From a virus (Duplodnaviria; Heunggongvirae; Uroviricota; Caudoviricetes): DNA of 7,934 bases. The number at the start of each line of letters is the position of its first letter. The first letter of the stretch is position 1. The notes under the pieces were generated by a model. The model was given only the letters and a program-made list of their open reading frames with translations, was not told the DNA's origin and did not search any database. The stretch lies in IMG/VR virus record IMGVR_UViG_2537562231_000020; one strand, written 5' to 3'. The position numbers and the translations under genes were made by a program. Below, piece after piece: positions 1 to 5,284 of this stretch.

Positions 1-299
1 ATCTGCAGGCCTGCCATAACATTACCGTACGCAGAGTAATATGCCCCACCGTACATTACCTGCCTGTTCTCTGCTCCCAGCCTGATATCCTGGATATATC
101 GGGAATCCGCATCCTGCTGTGTTATACCAGAAGTGATGTTTATGTCCTGCGTCCCGTCAAAGGGAACCCCATTAATATTTCTTGGGGTGGCGAGTCTATT
201 CGCGGCAACGGCGGTGCCGTCCGATGGCAGAGCATTCGCCGCCCTGTTTACCGTTTCCCGTAAACCGAGGTTTTCAGGAAAGCCAGGATTAACTCTGTT
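1..299 (-). CDS. Tail fibre protein, C-terminal variable segment (partial; no start codon; silent alternative copy inside an invertible segment)
   Basis: Minus-strand frame is open from 299 to the window edge, directly after an in-frame TAA (302..300). Translation: NRVNPGFPENLGLRETVNRAANALPSDGTAVAANRLATPRNINGVPFDGTQDINITSGITQQDADSRYIQDIRLGAENRQVMYGGAYYSAYGNVMAGLQ. It contains the phage tail-fibre repeat signature (RLATPRNINGVPFDGTQDINIT). No ATG/GTG/TTG lies in frame near its 5' end, and the frame runs through the 26-bp crossover site. Not in the ORF track because it has no start. Confidence 0.6.
255..280. other. 26-bp crossover site for a Gin/Hin/Pin-type invertase (gix/hix-like), right boundary of the invertible tail-fibre segment
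   Basis: TTCCCGTAAACC-GA-GGTTTTCAGGAA is an imperfect palindrome: two 12-bp half-sites (10/12 identical as inverted repeats) around a 2-bp core. It closely matches the gix left site as I recall it (TTCCTGTAAACCGAGGTTTTGGATAA). It lies 66 bp upstream of the invertase start and inside the tail-fibre reading frame. Confidence 0.7.
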
Positions 300-345
300 T
301 TATTCCTCATGCGACAATTCCGGCTTTTTATAATAAGGAAATCGT

Positions 346-918
346 ATGCTGATTGGGTATATCAGGGTGTCAACAAATGACCAGAATACGGCGCTACAAA
401 GAAATGCGCTGGAATGTGCAGGATGTGAGCTGTTTTTCGAAGACAGAATAAGCGGTAAGACAAGGGAGCGTCCCGGACTTAAACGCGCATTAAAGCGACT
501 CCGGCCAGGGGATACCCTGCTGGTCTGGAAACTGGATCGCCTTGGACGCAGTATGCAGCACCTTGTCCTTTTAACAGAAGAACTCCGGCAACGCGGCGTT
601 AACTTCCGCAGCATTACGGACAATATTGATACATCCACTCCCATGGGACGTTTCTTTTTCCATATAATGGGCGCGCTGGCGGAAATGGAGCGGGAACTCA
701 TTATTGAACGTACACGCGCGGGTCTTGCTGCTGCCCGTGCTCAGGGGCGTCATGGCGGCAGACCTCAGAAACTGACAGAGAAAGAGCGGGAGCAAATCGC
801 CCGTTTGCTGGCTAATGGCGAGTCCCGTAAACAAATCGCACTGATATTTGATATTGGCCTTTCCACCCTTTATCGTTATTTTCCTGCCTCACCAGCTCCG
901 TCACCAAAAGTACCGTGA
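346..918 (+). CDS. pin: Serine recombinase, DNA invertase of the Hin/Gin/Pin/Cin family
   Basis: 190-aa ORF with RBS AAGGA at 334-338. N-terminus MLIGYIRVSTNDQNTALQRNALECAGCE carries the catalytic serine motif; GDTLLVWKLDRLGRS, MGRFFFHIMGALAEMERELIIERTRAGL and a C-terminal HTH (KQIALIFDIGLSTLYRY) match the E. coli PinE sequence I recall over most of the length. Confidence 0.93.
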   Translation: MLIGYIRVSTNDQNTALQRNALECAGCELFFEDRISGKTRERPGLKRALKRLRPGDTLLVWKLDRLGRSMQHLVLLTEELRQRGVNFRSITDNIDTSTPMGRFFFHIMGALAEMERELIIERTRAGLAAARAQGRHGGRPQKLTEKEREQIARLLANGESRKQIALIFDIGLSTLYRYFPASPAPSPKVP

Positions 919-1003
919 CGCTTTTTTGAATTTCCGCAAAACACATATTTTTCAGCGGTCGCTATTCTGACTCTGTTTAATTCAGAAACAGGCAGAAAAG
1001 ACG

Positions 1004-3058
1004 ATGTCAGACTCCAAGTGGAAAATGCTCTCCGCCATGCCCGGAGAGTTTTCAGTCAAGGTTGCCGGTGGCACGGTGGCATTTATTGAAAGCCCTTTCC
1101 GCCCTTCGGGTAATAAAGGGGGGATCACCTTCGCAGACTGCGTGATCCGCTTCAGCACGAAAGAGCCATTATGGGTAATGCCGGTATCCGGTAATCCCAG
1201 TGCAGAAATCACCAGTTCAGGCGTGACTGGCATCATTCCAATCACATCTGACGTGGCCGGAACGCTCACGCCCTCCGACTGGAATGCACCGGATAACGCC
1301 GGGCCTTCCGGTAGCACGAATGGCAGCAGTTCAGAGCCGGAATATTACTTTGTTGTCATTCTCGCGGGTCAGTCAAATGGCATGGCCTACGGCGAGGGGC
1401 TGCCGTTACCGGATTCGTTTGACCGCCCGGACCCACGCATTAAGCAACTGGCACGCCGCAGTACGGTAACGCCCAACGGTACGTCGTGTACATACAACGA
1501 CATCATTCCGGCAGACCACTGCCTGCATGATGTTCAGGATATGAGCGGGATAAACCACCCGAAAGCTGATCTGGCAAAAGGCCAGTACGGGACTGTCGGT
1601 CAGGGGTTGCATATTGCCAAAAAACTGCTTCCCTATATCCCACAGAATGCCGGGATACTTCTGGTGCCCTGTTGTCGTGGCGGGTCAGCATTCACCACTG
1701 GAGCCGACGGCTCATTCAGTGAGGCCAGCGGTGCTTCCGCTGATTCTTCACGCTGGGGGGCCGGTAAACCTCTGTATCAGGACCTGGTAAGCCGCACCAA
1801 AGTCGCGCTGGCGAAAAACCCGAAAAACAAACTTCTGGCTGTGGTCTGGATGCAGGGAGAGGCAGACCTTGCCTCAGGAAGCCAGCAGCATAATAGTTTA
1901 TTCACGGCCATGGTTCAGCAGTTCAGAACTGACCTGGCTCCGCTTGCTGCGCAGTGCGTGAGTGGAAATGCCACCACGGTGCCGTGGATTTGCGGTGATA
2001 CCACGTATTACTGGAAAAACGCTGGCACCGATAAATATGAGGCAGTATACGGTGGCTACAAAGGCAAGGAAGCACAGAAAATTTTCTTTGTACCGTTCCT
2101 GACGGATGAGAATGGACAGAGCACGCCAACGAATGCTCCGGCGGAAGACCCGGATATTGTGGCTGTCGGGTATTACGGTGCAGCATCCCGAACCCAGGGC
2201 AGTTTTGTTTCGACACAGCGTGACAGCCATTTCAGCTCATGGGCACGCAGGGGCGTCATTTCAGACCGTCTGGCCTCAGCTATTATGCTCCATGCAGGGC
2301 GCACGGCTGAACTGATGCGCGGGCAGACCGTGACACCACCGGATGAGAAGCCGTCACCTGATACACCATCAAAACCGTCCACGCCACCCGCAGACACCAC
2401 GACGATGAGTACGCTATTTGCTTACCGGGCATCTGAGTCTGAAGGACGGTTGACACCACAGGGTTGGGCTGCCGGAGGTGGCAAGGCTCAAATCGTGGAT
2501 GATGCCGGAGCCAGCGGGGGTAAGGCAATGAAACTGACCAAGGAAACAGGAAGAGCCCCCTGGTACCTTGAGCATGATGCTGGTAATGGTGCGGACCTGC
2601 TGGGTAAAGGTGGTCTTGTCAGTTGTCGTTTTAAACTCGATGGCGCGCTTACGGCTAATCAGTACGCACTGGCGCTGTACTGGCCGGTTTCTGCCCTGCC
2701 GCAAGGGGTTACTCTGGAAGGAAATGCCGGTCATAACCTGCTGGCATCGTTCTACGTACAGAGCGATGCCACAGACCTTAACGTGATGTATCACAAAGGA
2801 AACACGGCGCAGAACACGAAGCTGGGGTCATTCGGCGCATTTAATAACGAATGGCATACGCTGGGCTTCCGTTTTGCCGGTAACAACAGTATTGAGGTGA
2901 CGCCGGTCATTGATGGTAAGGACGGGACACCATTCATGCTGTCGCAGTCTCCGGTCGGCACGTTTACGGCAGACAAGTTGCGCGTGACCGATATCACTAA
3001 AAATGCGACTTACCCGGTACTGATTGACAGTATCGTGGTGGAAGTGAATAACGCGTAA
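1004..3058 (+). CDS. SASA/SGNH-type carbohydrate O-acetylesterase (prophage NanS-p-like 9-O-acetyl-sialate esterase) with Pro/Thr linker and C-terminal lectin-like domain
   Basis: 684-aa ORF. Catalytic block VVILAGQSNGMAYGEG (GQSN motif) and downstream VVWMQGEADL (QGE-x-D block) are the signatures of the sialate O-acetylesterase (SASA/DUF303) family. A Pro/Thr-rich linker (PPDEKPSPDTPSKPSTPPADTTT, about nt 2336-2410) precedes a roughly 200-aa beta-rich C-terminal domain that looks lectin or ConA-like. Size and layout resemble the prophage NanS-p esterases of enterohaemorrhagic E. coli. Confidence 0.75.
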   Translation: MSDSKWKMLSAMPGEFSVKVAGGTVAFIESPFRPSGNKGGITFADCVIRFSTKEPLWVMPVSGNPSAEITSSGVTGIIPITSDVAGTLTPSDWNAPDNAGPSGSTNGSSSEPEYYFVVILAGQSNGMAYGEGLPLPDSFDRPDPRIKQLARRSTVTPNGTSCTYNDIIPADHCLHDVQDMSGINHPKADLAKGQYGTVGQGLHIAKKLLPYIPQNAGILLVPCCRGGSAFTTGADGSFSEASGASADSSRWGAGKPLYQDLVSRTKVALAKNPKNKLLAVVWMQGEADLASGSQQHNSLFTAMVQQFRTDLAPLAAQCVSGNATTVPWICGDTTYYWKNAGTDKYEAVYGGYKGKEAQKIFFVPFLTDENGQSTPTNAPAEDPDIVAVGYYGAASRTQGSFVSTQRDSHFSSWARRGVISDRLASAIMLHAGRTAELMRGQTVTPPDEKPSPDTPSKPSTPPADTTTMSTLFAYRASESEGRLTPQGWAAGGGKAQIVDDAGASGGKAMKLTKETGRAPWYLEHDAGNGADLLGKGGLVSCRFKLDGALTANQYALALYWPVSALPQGVTLEGNAGHNLLASFYVQSDATDLNVMYHKGNTAQNTKLGSFGAFNNEWHTLGFRFAGNNSIEVTPVIDGKDGTPFMLSQSPVGTFTADKLRVTDITKNATYPVLIDSIVVEVNNA

Positions 3059-3073
3059 GCAGGATAAAAAAAT

Positions 3074-3106
3074 GCCGCCGGTAAGGGAAAACAAGAAACC
3101 GGCGGC
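3074..3106. terminator. Stem-loop just downstream of the esterase gene; likely a transcript terminator, orientation ambiguous
   Basis: Perfect 9-bp stem GCCGCCGGT (3074-3082) / ACCGGCGGC (3098-3106) with a 15-nt loop. It is flanked by an A7 run upstream (3066-3072) and AAAAAG downstream, so the U-tract is on the minus-strand side. Confidence 0.35.
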
Positions 3107-3202
3107 AAAAAGATCGTTATATCCAAAGCAAAAAATGCAGTGCACCTTTTTACCTAACAGATATTACCGGTGTCAACACCATGTCAATAATTGGGAGGGA
3201 TA

Positions 3203-3385
3203 ATGACATTTTTACAGCTTATTTTATTGTATTTCTGCACGGCAGTATGTGCGTTATATCTGGTGAGTGGTGGTTATAAGGCCATCAGAAATTATGTTCG
3301 CCGCAAAATTGAGGACGCAGCAGCTGAAAAACTCAGTAAAACAGCGCAGGTAACTCCGCTCCCAAAAGACCCGACCCAGCCCTGA
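3203..3385 (+). CDS. Hypothetical small membrane protein (single N-terminal transmembrane helix)
   Basis: ATG at 3203 preceded by GGGAGGG (3193-3199). The ORF track starts it at TTG 3191; I prefer the ATG. Product MTFLQLILLYFCTAVCALYLVSGGYKAIRNYVRRKIEDAAAEKLSKTAQVTPLPKDPTQP has a hydrophobic N-terminus and a charged tail. I recognise no family. Confidence 0.45.
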   Translation: MTFLQLILLYFCTAVCALYLVSGGYKAIRNYVRRKIEDAAAEKLSKTAQVTPLPKDPTQP

Positions 3386-3420
3386 TTGCAGGGCTTTATT
3401 CCCGCATAAGGAGGATATAC

Positions 3421-3675
3421 ATGCCAGAAATTAAAGGCACCGTCACTGAAGACCTGGTAAAACAGGCACTGTATTCCGGTGAAGTAAATAAGTTGCTGAA
3501 AGCGCAGGTCCGCAAGGATTTTGAGGCACAAATCGACACTTACGTTGATGAAGTGCTGGCAAAACTTATTGGGCCAGCAGTTGCGGCCAGTGATGCTGAT
3601 AATGAGCCGAAAACCGACGCGCAGCCAGAGCAACCAGACCCGGCTCAGCCCGGAACTGACAGTACCATGATGTAA
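3421..3675 (+). CDS. Hypothetical small acidic protein
   Basis: 84-aa ORF with a strong RBS (AAGGAGG about 8 nt upstream of the ATG). Helical-looking N-terminal half and an acidic, Pro/Gln-rich, probably disordered C-terminal tail. I recognise no family. Confidence 0.5.
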   Translation: MPEIKGTVTEDLVKQALYSGEVNKLLKAQVRKDFEAQIDTYVDEVLAKLIGPAVAASDADNEPKTDAQPEQPDPAQPGTDSTMM

Positions 3676-3680
3676 CAATA

Positions 3681-3708
3681 CAAACCGGTGGTGTCCTCTG
3701 CCGGTTTG
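3681..3708. terminator. Hairpin between convergent genes (possible bidirectional terminator)
   Basis: Perfect 8-bp stem CAAACCGG (3681-3688) / CCGGTTTG (3701-3708) with a 12-nt loop, 6 nt after the stop of the 84-aa ORF and upstream of the convergent minus-strand gene end at 3843. U-tract is weak. Confidence 0.3.
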
Positions 3709-3842
3709 ACACTAATGAAAACATCTTTGCCGCTATCCAGCCATATGTAATCGCTGGATAGTATTTCGTATTCAGAAATATAGCTGCTTATGGAGCAGTC
3801 AATCCTGCTTCCCCATCCGGGCAGGCAAATGAACCGGTATCA

Positions 3843-4136
3843 TTAGTCCGATTCACGCTTTTGTAGAATCGTTCCCAGAATGCTATACAGCTCATTAGCC
3901 TGTTGCTCCATCATTGAGACGGAGGCTATACGGTGCAAAGTGATTTCAGGAGGTGGCACACCTCCATCTTCTTGCTGTGGAGGAAAAACATAAGATTTAA
4001 TAAAAAAGTTGAAGCATATGAACTCTCCCGCACTCGAACTGTATTTGCAGGCATCTGAATAATCGGAAAAATAATCATTATAGATTTCCGCATTTTCAAT
4101 CATTTTTCGATTTCTCGTCGTTACATGATTGTCCAT
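3843..4136 (-). CDS. Hypothetical protein, low-GC moron-like gene
   Basis: 97-aa minus-strand ORF with RBS AAGAGG 7-8 nt upstream of the ATG (complement of 4137-4150). Markedly AT-rich relative to flanking phage genes. Divergent from com/mom with its own AT-rich upstream region. I recognise no family. Confidence 0.5.
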   Translation of the reverse strand: MDNHVTTRNRKMIENAEIYNDYFSDYSDACKYSSSAGEFICFNFFIKSYVFPPQQEDGGVPPPEITLHRIASVSMMEQQANELYSILGTILQKRESD

Positions 4137-4392
4137 AGCAGCCTCTTACGCTGGCAATTAACCAATTGACTTCTATAAATTAGTTGATTTGTTTGCTTTG
4201 CGGTATTCAAATGTACAATCATTCAGCACTTATGCGTTACAGCACCGTTTAAAATTAGTGATCAAACTCATAAATTTTCGCTAATGACATTTCGTGTTAT
4301 TTGTTGTATCAATTAAATAAATCAAATCGATCGTTTTTGTCGATCGATTGAGTGATAAAGATATCAACAACAAAGCAGGAGGTTATGCGGCC
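4137..4392. promoter_or_regulatory. AT-rich divergent intergenic control region with a GATC triad and an ATCGATCG/CGATCGAT palindrome upstream of com
   Basis: 256-bp AT-rich spacer between divergent genes. Sigma70-like hexamers are present (for example TTTGCT 4192-4197 with TACAAT 4214-4219; ATGACA 4284-4289 with TATCAA 4307-4312). Three GATC sites at 4260, 4329 and 4342; the last two sit in the inverted repeat ATCGATCG (4326-4333) ... CGATCGAT (4341-4348). Exact promoter positions are not determinable by eye. Confidence 0.4.
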
Positions 4393-4593
4393 ATGTATCG
4401 AAACATACGGTGCCGACATTGTAACAAGCTACTGGCACGAGCCAGCTTCAGTTATCTGGAAGTTAAATGTCCGCGCTGTAAAACCCTCAATCAAATCACA
4501 TCTCAGAGCGCCACAGAGCACCCCACATACACAAGGAAATCCTGTCGTGGGGAACAGAAAGCAAGTTACATCCCGTATCATCAGCACGCCTGA
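4393..4593 (+). CDS. com: Com-like zinc-finger translational activator
   Basis: ATG at 4393 with RBS AGGAGG (4377-4382). Product [32 protein letters not shown]... has the paired C-x2-C zinc-finger layout and near-identical spacing to phage Mu Com as I recall it (IRCKNCNKLL...IEVRCPRCK). The ORF-track start at TTG 4348 is an upstream extension I consider unlikely. Confidence 0.85.
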
Positions 4594-5284
4594 ACTTATT
4601 CACTATAACGACAATATCGTCGGTTATGGCTCCCGTGAGTTACGGGTTGAGACAATAAGTTGCTGGCTGGCCCGGCTGGTCGTCGTCAATAAACATTACA
4701 GCCATCGTTTCGTAAATAATTCCTACCTTCATCTGGGCATATTTTCAGAACGGGAGCTGGTTGGCGTAATGCAATGGGGTTATGCCCTTAATCCAAACAA
4801 TGGTGCACGCGTCGTAACTGGCACGCAGAACCGCGAATATATGGAGCTTAACCGGTTATGGCTGCATGACTGTATGCCGAGAAACTCCGAATCAAGGGCA
4901 ATCAGTTACGCGCTCAAACTAATCAGACAACTTTATCCGCAGGTGCAGTGGGTTCAGTCGTTTGCAGATGAGCGTTGTGGCTGTCTTGGTGTCGTGTACC
5001 AGGCAAGCAATTTTGATTATGTAGGCAGTCATGAAACAACATTCTATGAACTTGATGGCGAGTGGTATCACGAGATTTGCAAGAATGCAATCAAACGAGG
5101 AGGACAGCGAGGTGAACATCTGCGGGCTAATATCGACAGAGCCAGTGTTCATAAATTCCGTCAGTTTCGTTACATCCGGTTTCTGGACAAGAGAGCCAGA
5201 AAACGCCTTAACACAAAGCTATTCAAAGTCCAGCCTTACCCAAAACCACAAACAGTTAAAACTGGTTTGAAAGAGAGTGAATGA
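4547..5284 (+). CDS. mom: Mom-like DNA modification protein (acyltransferase-type adenine modification; anti-restriction)
   Basis: Long ORF in a different frame overlapping the 3' end of com, as in the Mu com-mom operon, and sitting downstream of a Gin-family invertase as in Mu. 3' end is firm (stop 5282-5284). The start is uncertain: I placed it at GTG 4547, which is in frame with AAGGA 9 nt upstream, giving 245 aa; the first in-frame ATG is much further downstream. Assignment is mainly by gene context; I could not verify the Mom sequence from memory. Confidence 0.6.

What the first reader, a model, noticed from the sequence alone, without database searches (positions are those of the whole stretch)
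1..345. Invertible tail-fibre switch caught with the silent variable copy next to the invertase
A 26-bp gix/hix-like crossover site (255-280) lies inside a minus-strand tail-fibre reading frame that has no start codon and is capped by a stop 6 codons before the site. It sits directly upstream of a Pin/Gin-family invertase reading the other way. This is the Mu G-segment layout (constant part, crossover site, variable part, inverted alternative variable part, crossover site, invertase), with the window starting inside the segment. The copy seen here should be expressed only after inversion fuses it to a constant N-terminal part outside the window, switching receptor specificity. The site encodes FPENLGLRE in the fibre frame.
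Basis: partly seen in the sequence, partly recalled or inferred. Interest (0 to 1): 0.6.

Follow-up and report, generated by a model that had tools for sequence, protein, structure and literature searches.

The report
Mu-type invertible tail-fibre switch, silent copy
The left end of this contig is the invertase-side edge of a textbook phage-Mu-style DNA flip-switch that swaps the tip of a prophage tail fibre.

Summary
Window 255-280 holds a 26-bp gix-type crossover site, 21/26 identical to Mu gixR with the same GA/TC core. It lies in a minus-strand tail-fibre frame that has no usable start and is closed by a stop (300-302) six codons before the site. A 190-aa invertase at 346-918 reads the other way and is 74% identical to Mu Gin.

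The window is a whole draft contig (ADUM01000004.1), so it has no left flank. About 17 complete E. coli genomes carry the same Mu-like prophage end (1 mismatch in 5412 nt). They show the rest of the switch:
- a partner site in inverted orientation 1.3 kb to the left, inside the fibre gene that follows the baseplate genes;
- an alternative fibre tip;
- one tail-fibre-assembly gene.

Flipping in silico fuses the window's copy in frame to the constant part, giving a 296-aa fibre. That flipped state exists in nature, with breakpoints at the core. FORC_029 and NCCP 13983 are near-identical genomes that differ in orientation.

This is a new member of a known kind. It departs from Mu in its small 1.3-kb segment and in having one chaperone gene instead of two. 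A change in receptor specificity is inferred, not shown. Interest is low.

The parts
1..266 (-). Silent variable C-terminal cassette of the tail-fibre gene (S'v-like). It begins at GLRETVNRAANALPSDG... right after the crossover core and runs off the contig end. The full cassette is about 116 aa in identical prophages.
   Evidence: Translation. The full cassette with its stop is in L001 13907-14254. Its tip matches Mu S residues 435-502 (PDB 5yvq, E 5e-6; BLASTP 9e-11). The fused protein matches phrog_1833 tail fiber at 4e-129.
127..275 (.). Right arm of the imperfect inverted repeat shared by the two alternative cassettes. The partner arm lies outside the window.
   Evidence: the repeat finder on L001 gave arms 12943-13028 / 14190-14275 (86 nt, 93%) and 13042-13091 / 14127-14176 (50 nt, 84%). 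The arms are perfectly identical for 37 nt inward from the core.
255..280 (.). 26-bp gix-type crossover site (the gixR equivalent): TTCCCGTAAACC GA GGTTTTCAGGAA.
   Evidence: It is 21/26 identical to Mu gixR TTCCTGTAAACCGAGGTTTTGGATAA.
267..268 (.). Core dinucleotide GA (TC on the minus strand), where strand exchange takes place.
   Evidence: The cores are TC at the left site and GA at the right site. In alignment A1 the flipped and unflipped genomes become identical exactly from the core inward.
281..345 (.). Spacer between the site and the invertase. It holds the minus-strand stop TAA (300-302) that closes the fibre frame, the invertase RBS AAGGAA (335-340), and presumably the invertase promoter, which was not located.
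   Evidence: The sigma-70 consensus scan found no promoter here.
346..918 (+). Gin-family serine DNA invertase, 190 aa.
   Evidence: Pfam Resolvase + HTH_7. phrog_125 DNA invertase at 1.9e-94. 74% identity to Mu Gin. Best solved structures are Gin 4m6f and 3uj3 at about 1e-88. The same protein, WP_000904914.1, is found in genomes of both orientations.
368..430 (.). Candidate Fis-dependent recombinational enhancer inside the 5' end of the invertase gene. It has two Fis-consensus-like 15-mers, at 368-382 and 416-430. This part is inferred.
   Evidence: Matches to KNNYRNNWNNYRNNM lie at invertase nt 23-37 and 71-85, 48 bp centre to centre, at the same codons in Mu gin. Size and distance fit the published 65-bp enhancer with a Fis site at each end, about 100 bp from the site (PMC3798978).

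Best explanation
Window 1-918 is the invertase-proximal end of a Gin/gix-type invertible segment in a Mu-like prophage of E. coli.

The late tail operon ends in a fibre gene whose first ~176 codons (the constant part, Sc) lie outside the segment. A 26-bp crossover site sits inside that gene. A second copy, in inverted orientation, sits next to the invertase; this is the copy at window 255-280. Between the two sites, 1.3 kb apart, lie two alternative fibre C-termini that point towards each other. One tail-fibre-assembly gene follows the cassette seen in the window. A terminator-like hairpin lies between the two converging units.

The invertase (346-918) binds both sites and pairs them, probably with help from host Fis bound to an enhancer in the 5' end of its own gene. 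It cuts at the 2-bp core, rotates the DNA and re-ligates it, which flips the segment.

In the state captured here, the cassette at 1-266 has no promoter, no start codon and a stop just upstream, so it is silent. After inversion it is fused in frame to Sc, giving a 296-aa fibre, and the assembly gene becomes co-transcribed with it.

What is shown by sequence comparison: the site, the frame, the invertase family, the partner site, the in-frame fusion, and the natural occurrence of both states with breakpoints at the core. What is inferred: Fis and enhancer dependence, the invertase promoter, and that the two tips bind different receptors.
For: - Site and frame.
- Invertase: Pfam Resolvase + HTH_7. 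It is 74% identical to Gin, with identical blocks GY.RVSTNDQNT (which in Gin holds the catalytic serine), WKLDRLGRSM and MGRFFFH.MGALAEMERELIIERT. The top PDB hits are Gin structures.
- Site homology: the site is 21/26 identical to Mu gixR, with the same core and the same flanking ACGGTAAACAGGGC. It lies at the homologous codons of S (FIQNLGLQETVNRA in Mu, FIDNVGLRETVNRA here).
- Left half, read in prophages that differ from window 1-5412 by one base: the partner site TTATCGATAACGTCGGTTTACGGGAA is at L001 12938-12963. It is inverted, has the same core and an identical inner half, and there are exactly two such sites in 29 kb.
- Constant part: Sc is 47% identical to the Mu S N-terminus (E 1e-49; PDB 5yvq at 9e-46). 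Sc follows the baseplate V / gp46 / gp47 / gp48 homologues, as in Mu.
- In-silico flip: it gives an in-frame 296-aa fibre followed by AGGAGG-ATG of the assembly gene.
- Natural flipped state: DLI.5a copy 2, TOE17 and STEC2018-553 match the predicted flip at 99.9-100%, and FORC_043 and NCCP 13983 at 99.4%. Alignment A1 places the breakpoints at the core. Junction patterns sort the loci cleanly into two states.
- Recent switching: FORC_029 (5,189,944 bp) and NCCP 13983 (5,189,943 bp) have identical accessions for the flanking proteins checked but opposite orientation.
- Fis dependence: the contact residues Q..RL are present in EQIARLL (with PMC3798978). Candidate Fis sites are described.
Against: - The source record is a 7934-bp contig that ends inside the segment. 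The partner site and the constant part were not seen in this genome itself.
- At least one carrier prophage (JKHS016) is heavily rearranged, with many pseudogenes. The switch may therefore sit in a defective prophage that makes no particles.
- The left and right sites differ at 5 of the 12 outer-half positions, including the base next to the core.
- No invertase promoter was found by the consensus scan.
- The enhancer assignment rests on a loose motif.
- There is only one assembly gene for two tips, unlike Mu.
- No experiment shows that inversion happens in this strain or changes host range.
Confidence: 0.9

Rival explanations
1. The layout is that of a Mu G segment, but in this strain it no longer works as a host-range switch. 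Either the prophage is defective, or the left half is missing, and the cassette at 1-266 is simply a decaying pseudogene beside a still-intact invertase.
For: The contig ends inside the segment, so the left half was not seen. The identical prophage in JKHS016 is scrambled, with truncated portal, protease, tape-measure and baseplate genes. DLI.5a copy 2 has a frameshifted invertase. The silent Sv copy in FORC_043 has a 1-nt deletion. RefSeq annotates the window's cassette as an incomplete pseudogene.
Against: The invertase ORF, the site and the cassette frame are intact in the window. FORC_029, FORC_043 and NCCP 13983 have intact baseplate-to-fibre operons with the same invertase protein. Near-identical genomes differ in orientation, so switching is recent.
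Confidence: 0.15
2. The two orientations seen among genomes arise from RecA-dependent homologous recombination between the ~135-bp inverted repeats, not from the invertase acting at the 26-bp site.
For: The two cassettes share an inverted repeat of 86 nt at 93% plus 50 nt at 84%. In principle that is long enough for rare homologous exchange.
Against: In flipped genomes every cassette-specific SNP in the repeat moves with the cassette, including the first one, 37 nt inward from the start of the core. The outer half-sites stay with their flanks. The exchange is therefore confined to a 37-nt stretch that starts at the core. An intact Gin homologue sits next to the site. The two cores are identical and non-palindromic, as an invertase needs.
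Confidence: 0.03
3. The minus-strand frame is an ordinary stand-alone gene with its own start.
For: Gene callers do place ORFs in this region. For example, a 65-aa plus-strand ORF is called at 136-333.
Against: There is a stop at 300-302, and no ATG/GTG/TTG until codon 82 (ATG at 56), which would leave only about 48 aa. The frame is continuous with a homologue of Mu S only when fused to Sc.
Confidence: 0.01

Closest known systems
Phage Mu G segment with Gin invertase (gixL/gixR; S-U / S'-U')
   Same: The order is the same: baseplate genes, constant part of S, crossover site inside S, converging variable cassettes, second site, then an outward-reading invertase, with com-mom further on. The invertase is 74% identical. 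The sites are 21-22/26 identical, with the same GA/TC core, at the homologous codons. Sc is 47% identical to Mu Sc. The tips share the C-terminal module of Mu S and S'. The assembly protein is homologous to U and U'.
   Different: The segment is 1.3 kb rather than about 3 kb. The fibres are 293 and 296 aa rather than 504 aa for Mu S. There is a single assembly gene instead of U and U'. The outer half-sites differ from each other at 5 positions, whereas Mu's two 26-bp sites are identical. The site-to-invertase spacer is 11 bp longer (65 vs 54 nt). A 3.4-kb esterase module is inserted between the invertase and com-mom.
Hin/hix (Salmonella), Cin/cix (P1) and Pin/pix (e14) DNA invertase systems
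   Same: They share the same enzyme subclass and the 26-bp two-half-site plus 2-bp-core architecture. The residues reported to contact Fis (Q..RL in DNA-binding-domain helix 1) are conserved (PMC3798978). A candidate 63-bp enhancer with two Fis-like sites lies about 100 bp from the site, inside the invertase gene.
   Different: Hin flips a promoter rather than coding cassettes. That Cin and Pin flip fibre cassettes in other phage backbones is stated from general knowledge and was not compared here.
Shigella flexneri phage SfMu
   Same: It is a Mu-like phage with gin, a G segment and mom (PMC4406740).
   Different: SfMu keeps the Mu-type S, U, U', S' set and 34-bp repeats, and its inversion was not demonstrated. 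The present element has no match above 80% identity in the phage collection.

Membership tests
Fis/enhancer-dependent DNA invertases (Hin/Gin/Cin/Pin subclass of small serine recombinases) | About 190 aa, with an N-terminal resolvase catalytic domain and a C-terminal HTH_7 DNA-binding domain | tested here: met
   Pfam PF00239 (1.6e-51, residues 3-135) and PF02796 (4.9e-15, residues 138-181).
Fis/enhancer-dependent DNA invertases (Hin/Gin/Cin/Pin subclass of small serine recombinases) | Catalytic serine near the N-terminus (Ser9 of Gin) and conserved active-site blocks | tested here: met
   The blocks GYIRVSTNDQNT, WKLDRLGRSM and MGRFFFHIMGALAEMERELIIERT align without gaps to Gin.
Fis/enhancer-dependent DNA invertases (Hin/Gin/Cin/Pin subclass of small serine recombinases) | Invertase-specific residues that contact Fis (Hin Gln151, Arg154, Leu155 in DNA-binding-domain helix 1) | tested here: met
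   The window protein has EQIARLL, aligned to Gin EQAGRLL. The residues are defined in PMC3798978.
Fis/enhancer-dependent DNA invertases (Hin/Gin/Cin/Pin subclass of small serine recombinases) | Two 26-bp sites (12-bp half-sites around a 2-bp core) in inverted orientation with identical cores | tested here: met
   The right site is in the window. The left site is in prophages that differ from window 1-5412 by one base, with core TC in both when read in the same sense. It could not be tested in the source contig itself.
Fis/enhancer-dependent DNA invertases (Hin/Gin/Cin/Pin subclass of small serine recombinases) | Cis-acting enhancer of about 65 bp with two Fis sites, natively about 100 bp from one site | tested here: inconclusive
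   Two loose Fis-consensus matches lie 48 bp apart at 368-382 and 416-430. They are conserved in position with Mu gin and centred 107 and 155 bp from the site centre. The motif is degenerate and no binding data exist.
Fis/enhancer-dependent DNA invertases (Hin/Gin/Cin/Pin subclass of small serine recombinases) | Inversion actually happens, with exchange at the core | tested here: met
   The evidence is comparative only. Both orientations are found in natural genomes, with breakpoints confined to the core plus 35 nt. Near-identical genomes FORC_029 and NCCP 13983 differ in state. No enzymology was done.
Mu G-segment-type tail-fibre host-range switch | The crossover site lies inside the fibre ORF, and a constant N-terminal part lies outside the segment at the end of the tail operon | tested here: met
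   Sc is at L001 12421-12949 and follows the baseplate genes. It is homologous to the Mu S N-terminus.
Mu G-segment-type tail-fibre host-range switch | Two alternative C-terminal cassettes in opposite orientation, each fusing in frame | tested here: met
   The products are 293 aa (Sv) and 296 aa (S'v). Both exist as annotated proteins in natural genomes.
Mu G-segment-type tail-fibre host-range switch | Each cassette is followed by its own tail-fibre-assembly gene (U and U') | tested here: not met
   There is only one Caudo_TAP gene in the segment, downstream of S'v. The layout is the same in JKHS016, FORC_029 and O157:H7 Z852.
Mu G-segment-type tail-fibre host-range switch | The invertase gene lies immediately outside the segment and reads away from it | tested here: met
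   The invertase is at 346-918(+), 65 nt from the site.
Mu G-segment-type tail-fibre host-range switch | The two orientations give particles with different host range | not testable with these tools
   The tips diverge after about 45 shared residues. Receptor use needs phage experiments.

The most novel reading that the evidence does not exclude
The switch is asymmetric. One state gives a fibre tip plus a co-transcribed assembly chaperone. The other state, the one captured in the window, gives a tip with no cognate chaperone gene in the sense orientation. Inversion might then toggle between a chaperone-dependent and a chaperone-independent fibre, or between a working fibre and a non-functional one (an on/off switch). 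Either would differ from Mu, which alternates between two equivalent S-U pairs. The single-chaperone layout recurs in a diverged relative, O157:H7 Z852, so it is not a one-off deletion.
Probability: 0.3. Interest if true: 0.35.

Novelty: new member of a known kind. Interest (0 to 1): 0.15.

Why it matters
The main value is for annotation. RefSeq labels the window's cassette an incomplete pseudogene and the fused fibres hypothetical proteins. They are in fact the silent and active forms of one phase-variable fibre gene in a Mu-like prophage carried by dozens of E. coli genomes, including STEC strains. Recognising the switch explains why near-identical genomes differ here and why assemblies may break here. 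It also matters when predicting host range for this phage group. It adds no new mechanism. The single-chaperone asymmetry is the only point that might repay an experiment.

Tried and rejected
- I looked for the true left flank. An exact-match scan of genome contigs with the junction between the Mu-like end and the tape-measure gene found nothing. Look-ups of the chimeric tape-measure ORF starting at 5277 and at 5451 found nothing. The start at 5373 identified the source and showed that the window is the whole contig, so the flank cannot be recovered from that record.
- A search for the partner site with up to 3 mismatches failed, because the outer half differs at 5 positions. The site was found through the inverted-repeat search instead.
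- Pfam gave no family for either fibre protein. PHROGs and PDB sequence searches did.
- The sigma-70 consensus scan found no promoter for the invertase, and none reading into the segment from the invertase side.
- Several fetched loci were not available to Python. Orientation was therefore scored with DNA alignment and gapped junction patterns.
- Megablast against the phage collection gave only hits below 80% identity, so no described phage genome carries this exact element.
- I rejected the stand-alone gene reading and RecA-driven inversion as the main mechanism.

Full report
**1. The observation**

Window 255-280 reads TTCCCGTAAACCGAGGTTTTCAGGAA. This is two 12-bp half-sites around a GA core. 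The palindromic heart of the site, AAACCNNGGTTT, occurs once in the window, against 0.01 expected from shuffles.

On the minus strand, one frame reads TAA (300-302), then NRVNPG, then FPENLGLRETVNRAANALPSDGTAVAANRLATPRNINGVPFDG... It stays open to position 1. The only in-frame start-type codons after the stop are ATGs at 56 and 17, too far in to give more than a ~48-aa fragment.

The ORF at 346-918 on the plus strand is a 190-aa Resolvase + HTH_7 protein.

**2. Where the window comes from**

A look-up of the ORF at 5373-6944 showed that the window is the entire contig ADUM01000004.1 (7934 bp) of draft assembly GCA_000184765.2. Position 1 is therefore an assembly break, and this record has no left flank. 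An exact scan of one-genome-per-species contigs for the junction at 5412/5413 found nothing.

Window 1-5412 is almost identical to the right end of a Mu-like prophage in about 17 complete E. coli genomes. Against strain JKHS016 (locus L001) there is a single mismatch, at 5354, and none in the first 1000 nt. I used these prophages as stand-ins for the missing flank.

**3. The rest of the switch**

L001 has an inverted repeat whose right arm is window 190-275 and whose left arm lies 1.16 kb away.

- The left arm carries TTATCGATAACGTCGGTTTACGGGAA at L001 12938-12963. Read in the same sense, the window's site is TTCCTGAAAACCTCGGTTTACGGGAA.
- The core (TC) and the inner half-site are identical. 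The outer half differs at 5 positions.
- There are exactly two such sites in 29 kb.
- The left site lies inside a 293-aa ORF. In intact copies that ORF directly follows homologues of Mu baseplate genes gp45-gp48 (Mu layout).
- Its first 198 residues are 47% identical to Mu tail-fibre protein S (E 1e-49; PDB 5yvq at 9e-46). The homology runs across the site-encoded peptide (Mu FIQNLGLQETVNRA, here FIDNVGLRETVNRA).

The order is: constant part Sc, left site, variable tip Sv with its stop, a terminator-like hairpin (L001 13311-13330), a tail-fibre-assembly gene on the minus strand (Caudo_TAP; homologous to Mu U and U'), the window's cassette S'v on the minus strand, the right site, and the invertase.

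**4. Does it flip?**

Inverting L001 in silico between the two cores fuses Sc in frame to the window's cassette. The product is a 296-aa fibre, followed by AGGAGG-N5-ATG of the assembly gene.

A 700-nt query spanning that predicted junction matched five genomes over its full length at 99.4-100%: DLI.5a, TOE17, STEC2018-553, FORC_043 and NCCP 13983. In these genomes the 296-aa protein is annotated and the other tip lies silent beside the invertase.

Alignment A1 shows that the reverse complement of the JKHS016 segment equals the DLI.5a segment base for base, from one core to the other. The outer half-sites stay with their flanks. Every SNP that distinguishes the two repeat arms travels with its cassette, so the exchange is confined to a 37-nt stretch that begins at the core. 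This fits a serine invertase and argues against general homologous recombination.

Gapped junction patterns sort all fetched loci into two clean states:
- State A, Sv expressed and S'v silent: JKHS016, FORC_029 and the window.
- State B, S'v expressed: DLI.5a copy 2, FORC_043 and NCCP 13983.

FORC_029 and NCCP 13983 have chromosomes of 5,189,944 and 5,189,943 bp. The flanking proteins checked carry identical accessions, yet the two genomes are in opposite states. The switch has therefore flipped very recently. DLI.5a and TOE17 carry copies in both states within one genome.

**5. The enzyme and its cofactor**

The invertase is 74% identical to Mu Gin over 184 residues without gaps, including the GY.RVSTNDQ block that in Gin holds the catalytic serine. 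Its best solved relatives are Gin structures 4m6f and 3uj3. It keeps the Q..RL residues of DNA-binding-domain helix 1, which McLean et al. report as Fis contacts unique to invertases (PMC3798978).

That paper describes the enhancer as about 65 bp with a Fis site at each end, natively about 100 bp from one crossover site. A loose Fis consensus matches invertase nt 23-37 and 71-85 in both Mu gin and the window, at 368-382 and 416-430. The two matches are 48 bp apart and are centred 107 and 155 bp from the site centre. The site-to-gene spacer is 11 bp longer than in Mu (65 vs 54 nt), about one helical turn. I treat the enhancer as a reasonable inference, not a finding. No promoter for the invertase was located.

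**6. Comparison with what is known**

This is the Mu G-segment/Gin system (van de Putte 1980 and Kahmann 1985, as cited in PMC4406740 and PMC3798978) in a different Mu-like prophage. Membership of the invertase family is met on every sequence-level criterion, and the overall fibre-switch architecture is met.

One Mu-defining feature is not met: there is a single assembly gene rather than one per cassette. The same layout recurs in O157:H7 Z852, a diverged relative. Both tips carry the C-terminal module of Mu S and S', and in Mu each of those has its own chaperone gene. How the Sv tip folds is unexplained.

Other differences are the 1.3-kb size, the short (about 295-aa) fibres and the divergent outer half-sites. 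No phage record matches this element above 80% identity. I file it as a new member of a known kind.

**7. Rivals**

- *Relic.* The cassette may be a relic in a defective prophage. This cannot be excluded for the source strain. The contig ends inside the segment, JKHS016's copy is scrambled, and decay is seen elsewhere: a frameshifted invertase in DLI.5a copy 2 and a 1-nt deletion in FORC_043's silent Sv. This reading concerns present-day function, not what the feature is.
- *RecA-driven inversion.* Disfavoured by the breakpoint mapping.
- *Stand-alone gene.* Disfavoured by the lack of a start codon.

**8. Verdict**

The feature is real, well understood in principle and of low novelty. Interest is 0.15.

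Noticed in passing
window 1004-3675: There is a 684-aa SASA-family esterase with a C-terminal DUF6645 domain at 1004-3058. Residues 94-683 are about 65% identical to the NanS-p/YjhS-type 9-O-acetyl-sialate esterases of Stx phages, but the N-terminus is different. It is followed by DUF1378 (3203-3385) and DUF826 (3421-3675) genes. This module, typical of the lambdoid late region, sits between the invertase and com-mom. In Mu those two are adjacent.
   Followed up: partly
window 5412/5413 and 5413-7934: The Mu-like element ends at about 5412. From 5413 on, the first 388 nt tested (5413-5800) are 100% identical to the interior of the tape-measure gene of Stx2 phage 1717-type lambdoid phages; the rest of that gene and minor tail genes M and L follow. 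The Mu-like phage has therefore transposed into a lambdoid prophage's tape-measure gene. The 523-555-aa ORF at 5277/5373-6944 is a chimeric remnant.
   Followed up: partly
L008 (O157:H7 Z852) 3700-11876; phage records LC727881 and LC727895: A related Mu-like prophage (about 90% identity) sits immediately upstream of an intact lambdoid tape-measure gene in O157:H7 Z852. Two Stx-phage records are annotated as carrying an inserted Mu-like phage. Mu-like insertions into the tail regions of lambdoid or Stx prophages seem to recur at different points.
   Followed up: no
window 4393-5284: The Com zinc-ribbon gene (4393-4593) overlaps mom (4547-5284; Pfam Mom 7.8e-78), as at the right end of Mu. The mechanical ORF list extends both upstream (4348 and 4352), and those longer ORFs are probably artefacts.
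   Followed up: partly
L003 (DLI.5a copy 2) 4646-5217; L004 (FORC_043) about 4320: The invertase of DLI.5a copy 2 is annotated as frameshifted, which would lock that copy with S'v expressed. In FORC_043 the silent Sv cassette has lost one C from a C6 run, which would frameshift it if it were flipped back.
   Followed up: no
window 136-333 (+): A 65-aa ORF is called across the crossover site, antisense to the silent cassette. A counterpart (WP_071995513.1) is annotated in flipped genomes as well. It is probably spurious. Its N-terminal part would change with orientation.
   Followed up: no
window 1 and 7934: Both window ends are contig ends of a draft assembly. The left break lies about 125 nt beyond the inner end of the inverted repeat, inside cassette-specific sequence. 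The cause was not determined. It could be repeats shared with other prophage fibre and assembly genes, or mixed orientation in the sequenced culture.
   Followed up: no
L001 1-14000 (JKHS016): In JKHS016 the Mu-like prophage to the left of the switch is scrambled. It has truncated portal, protease, tape-measure and baseplate genes, with blocks in opposite orientations. Either the prophage is genuinely rearranged and defective, or there are assembly problems.
   Followed up: no
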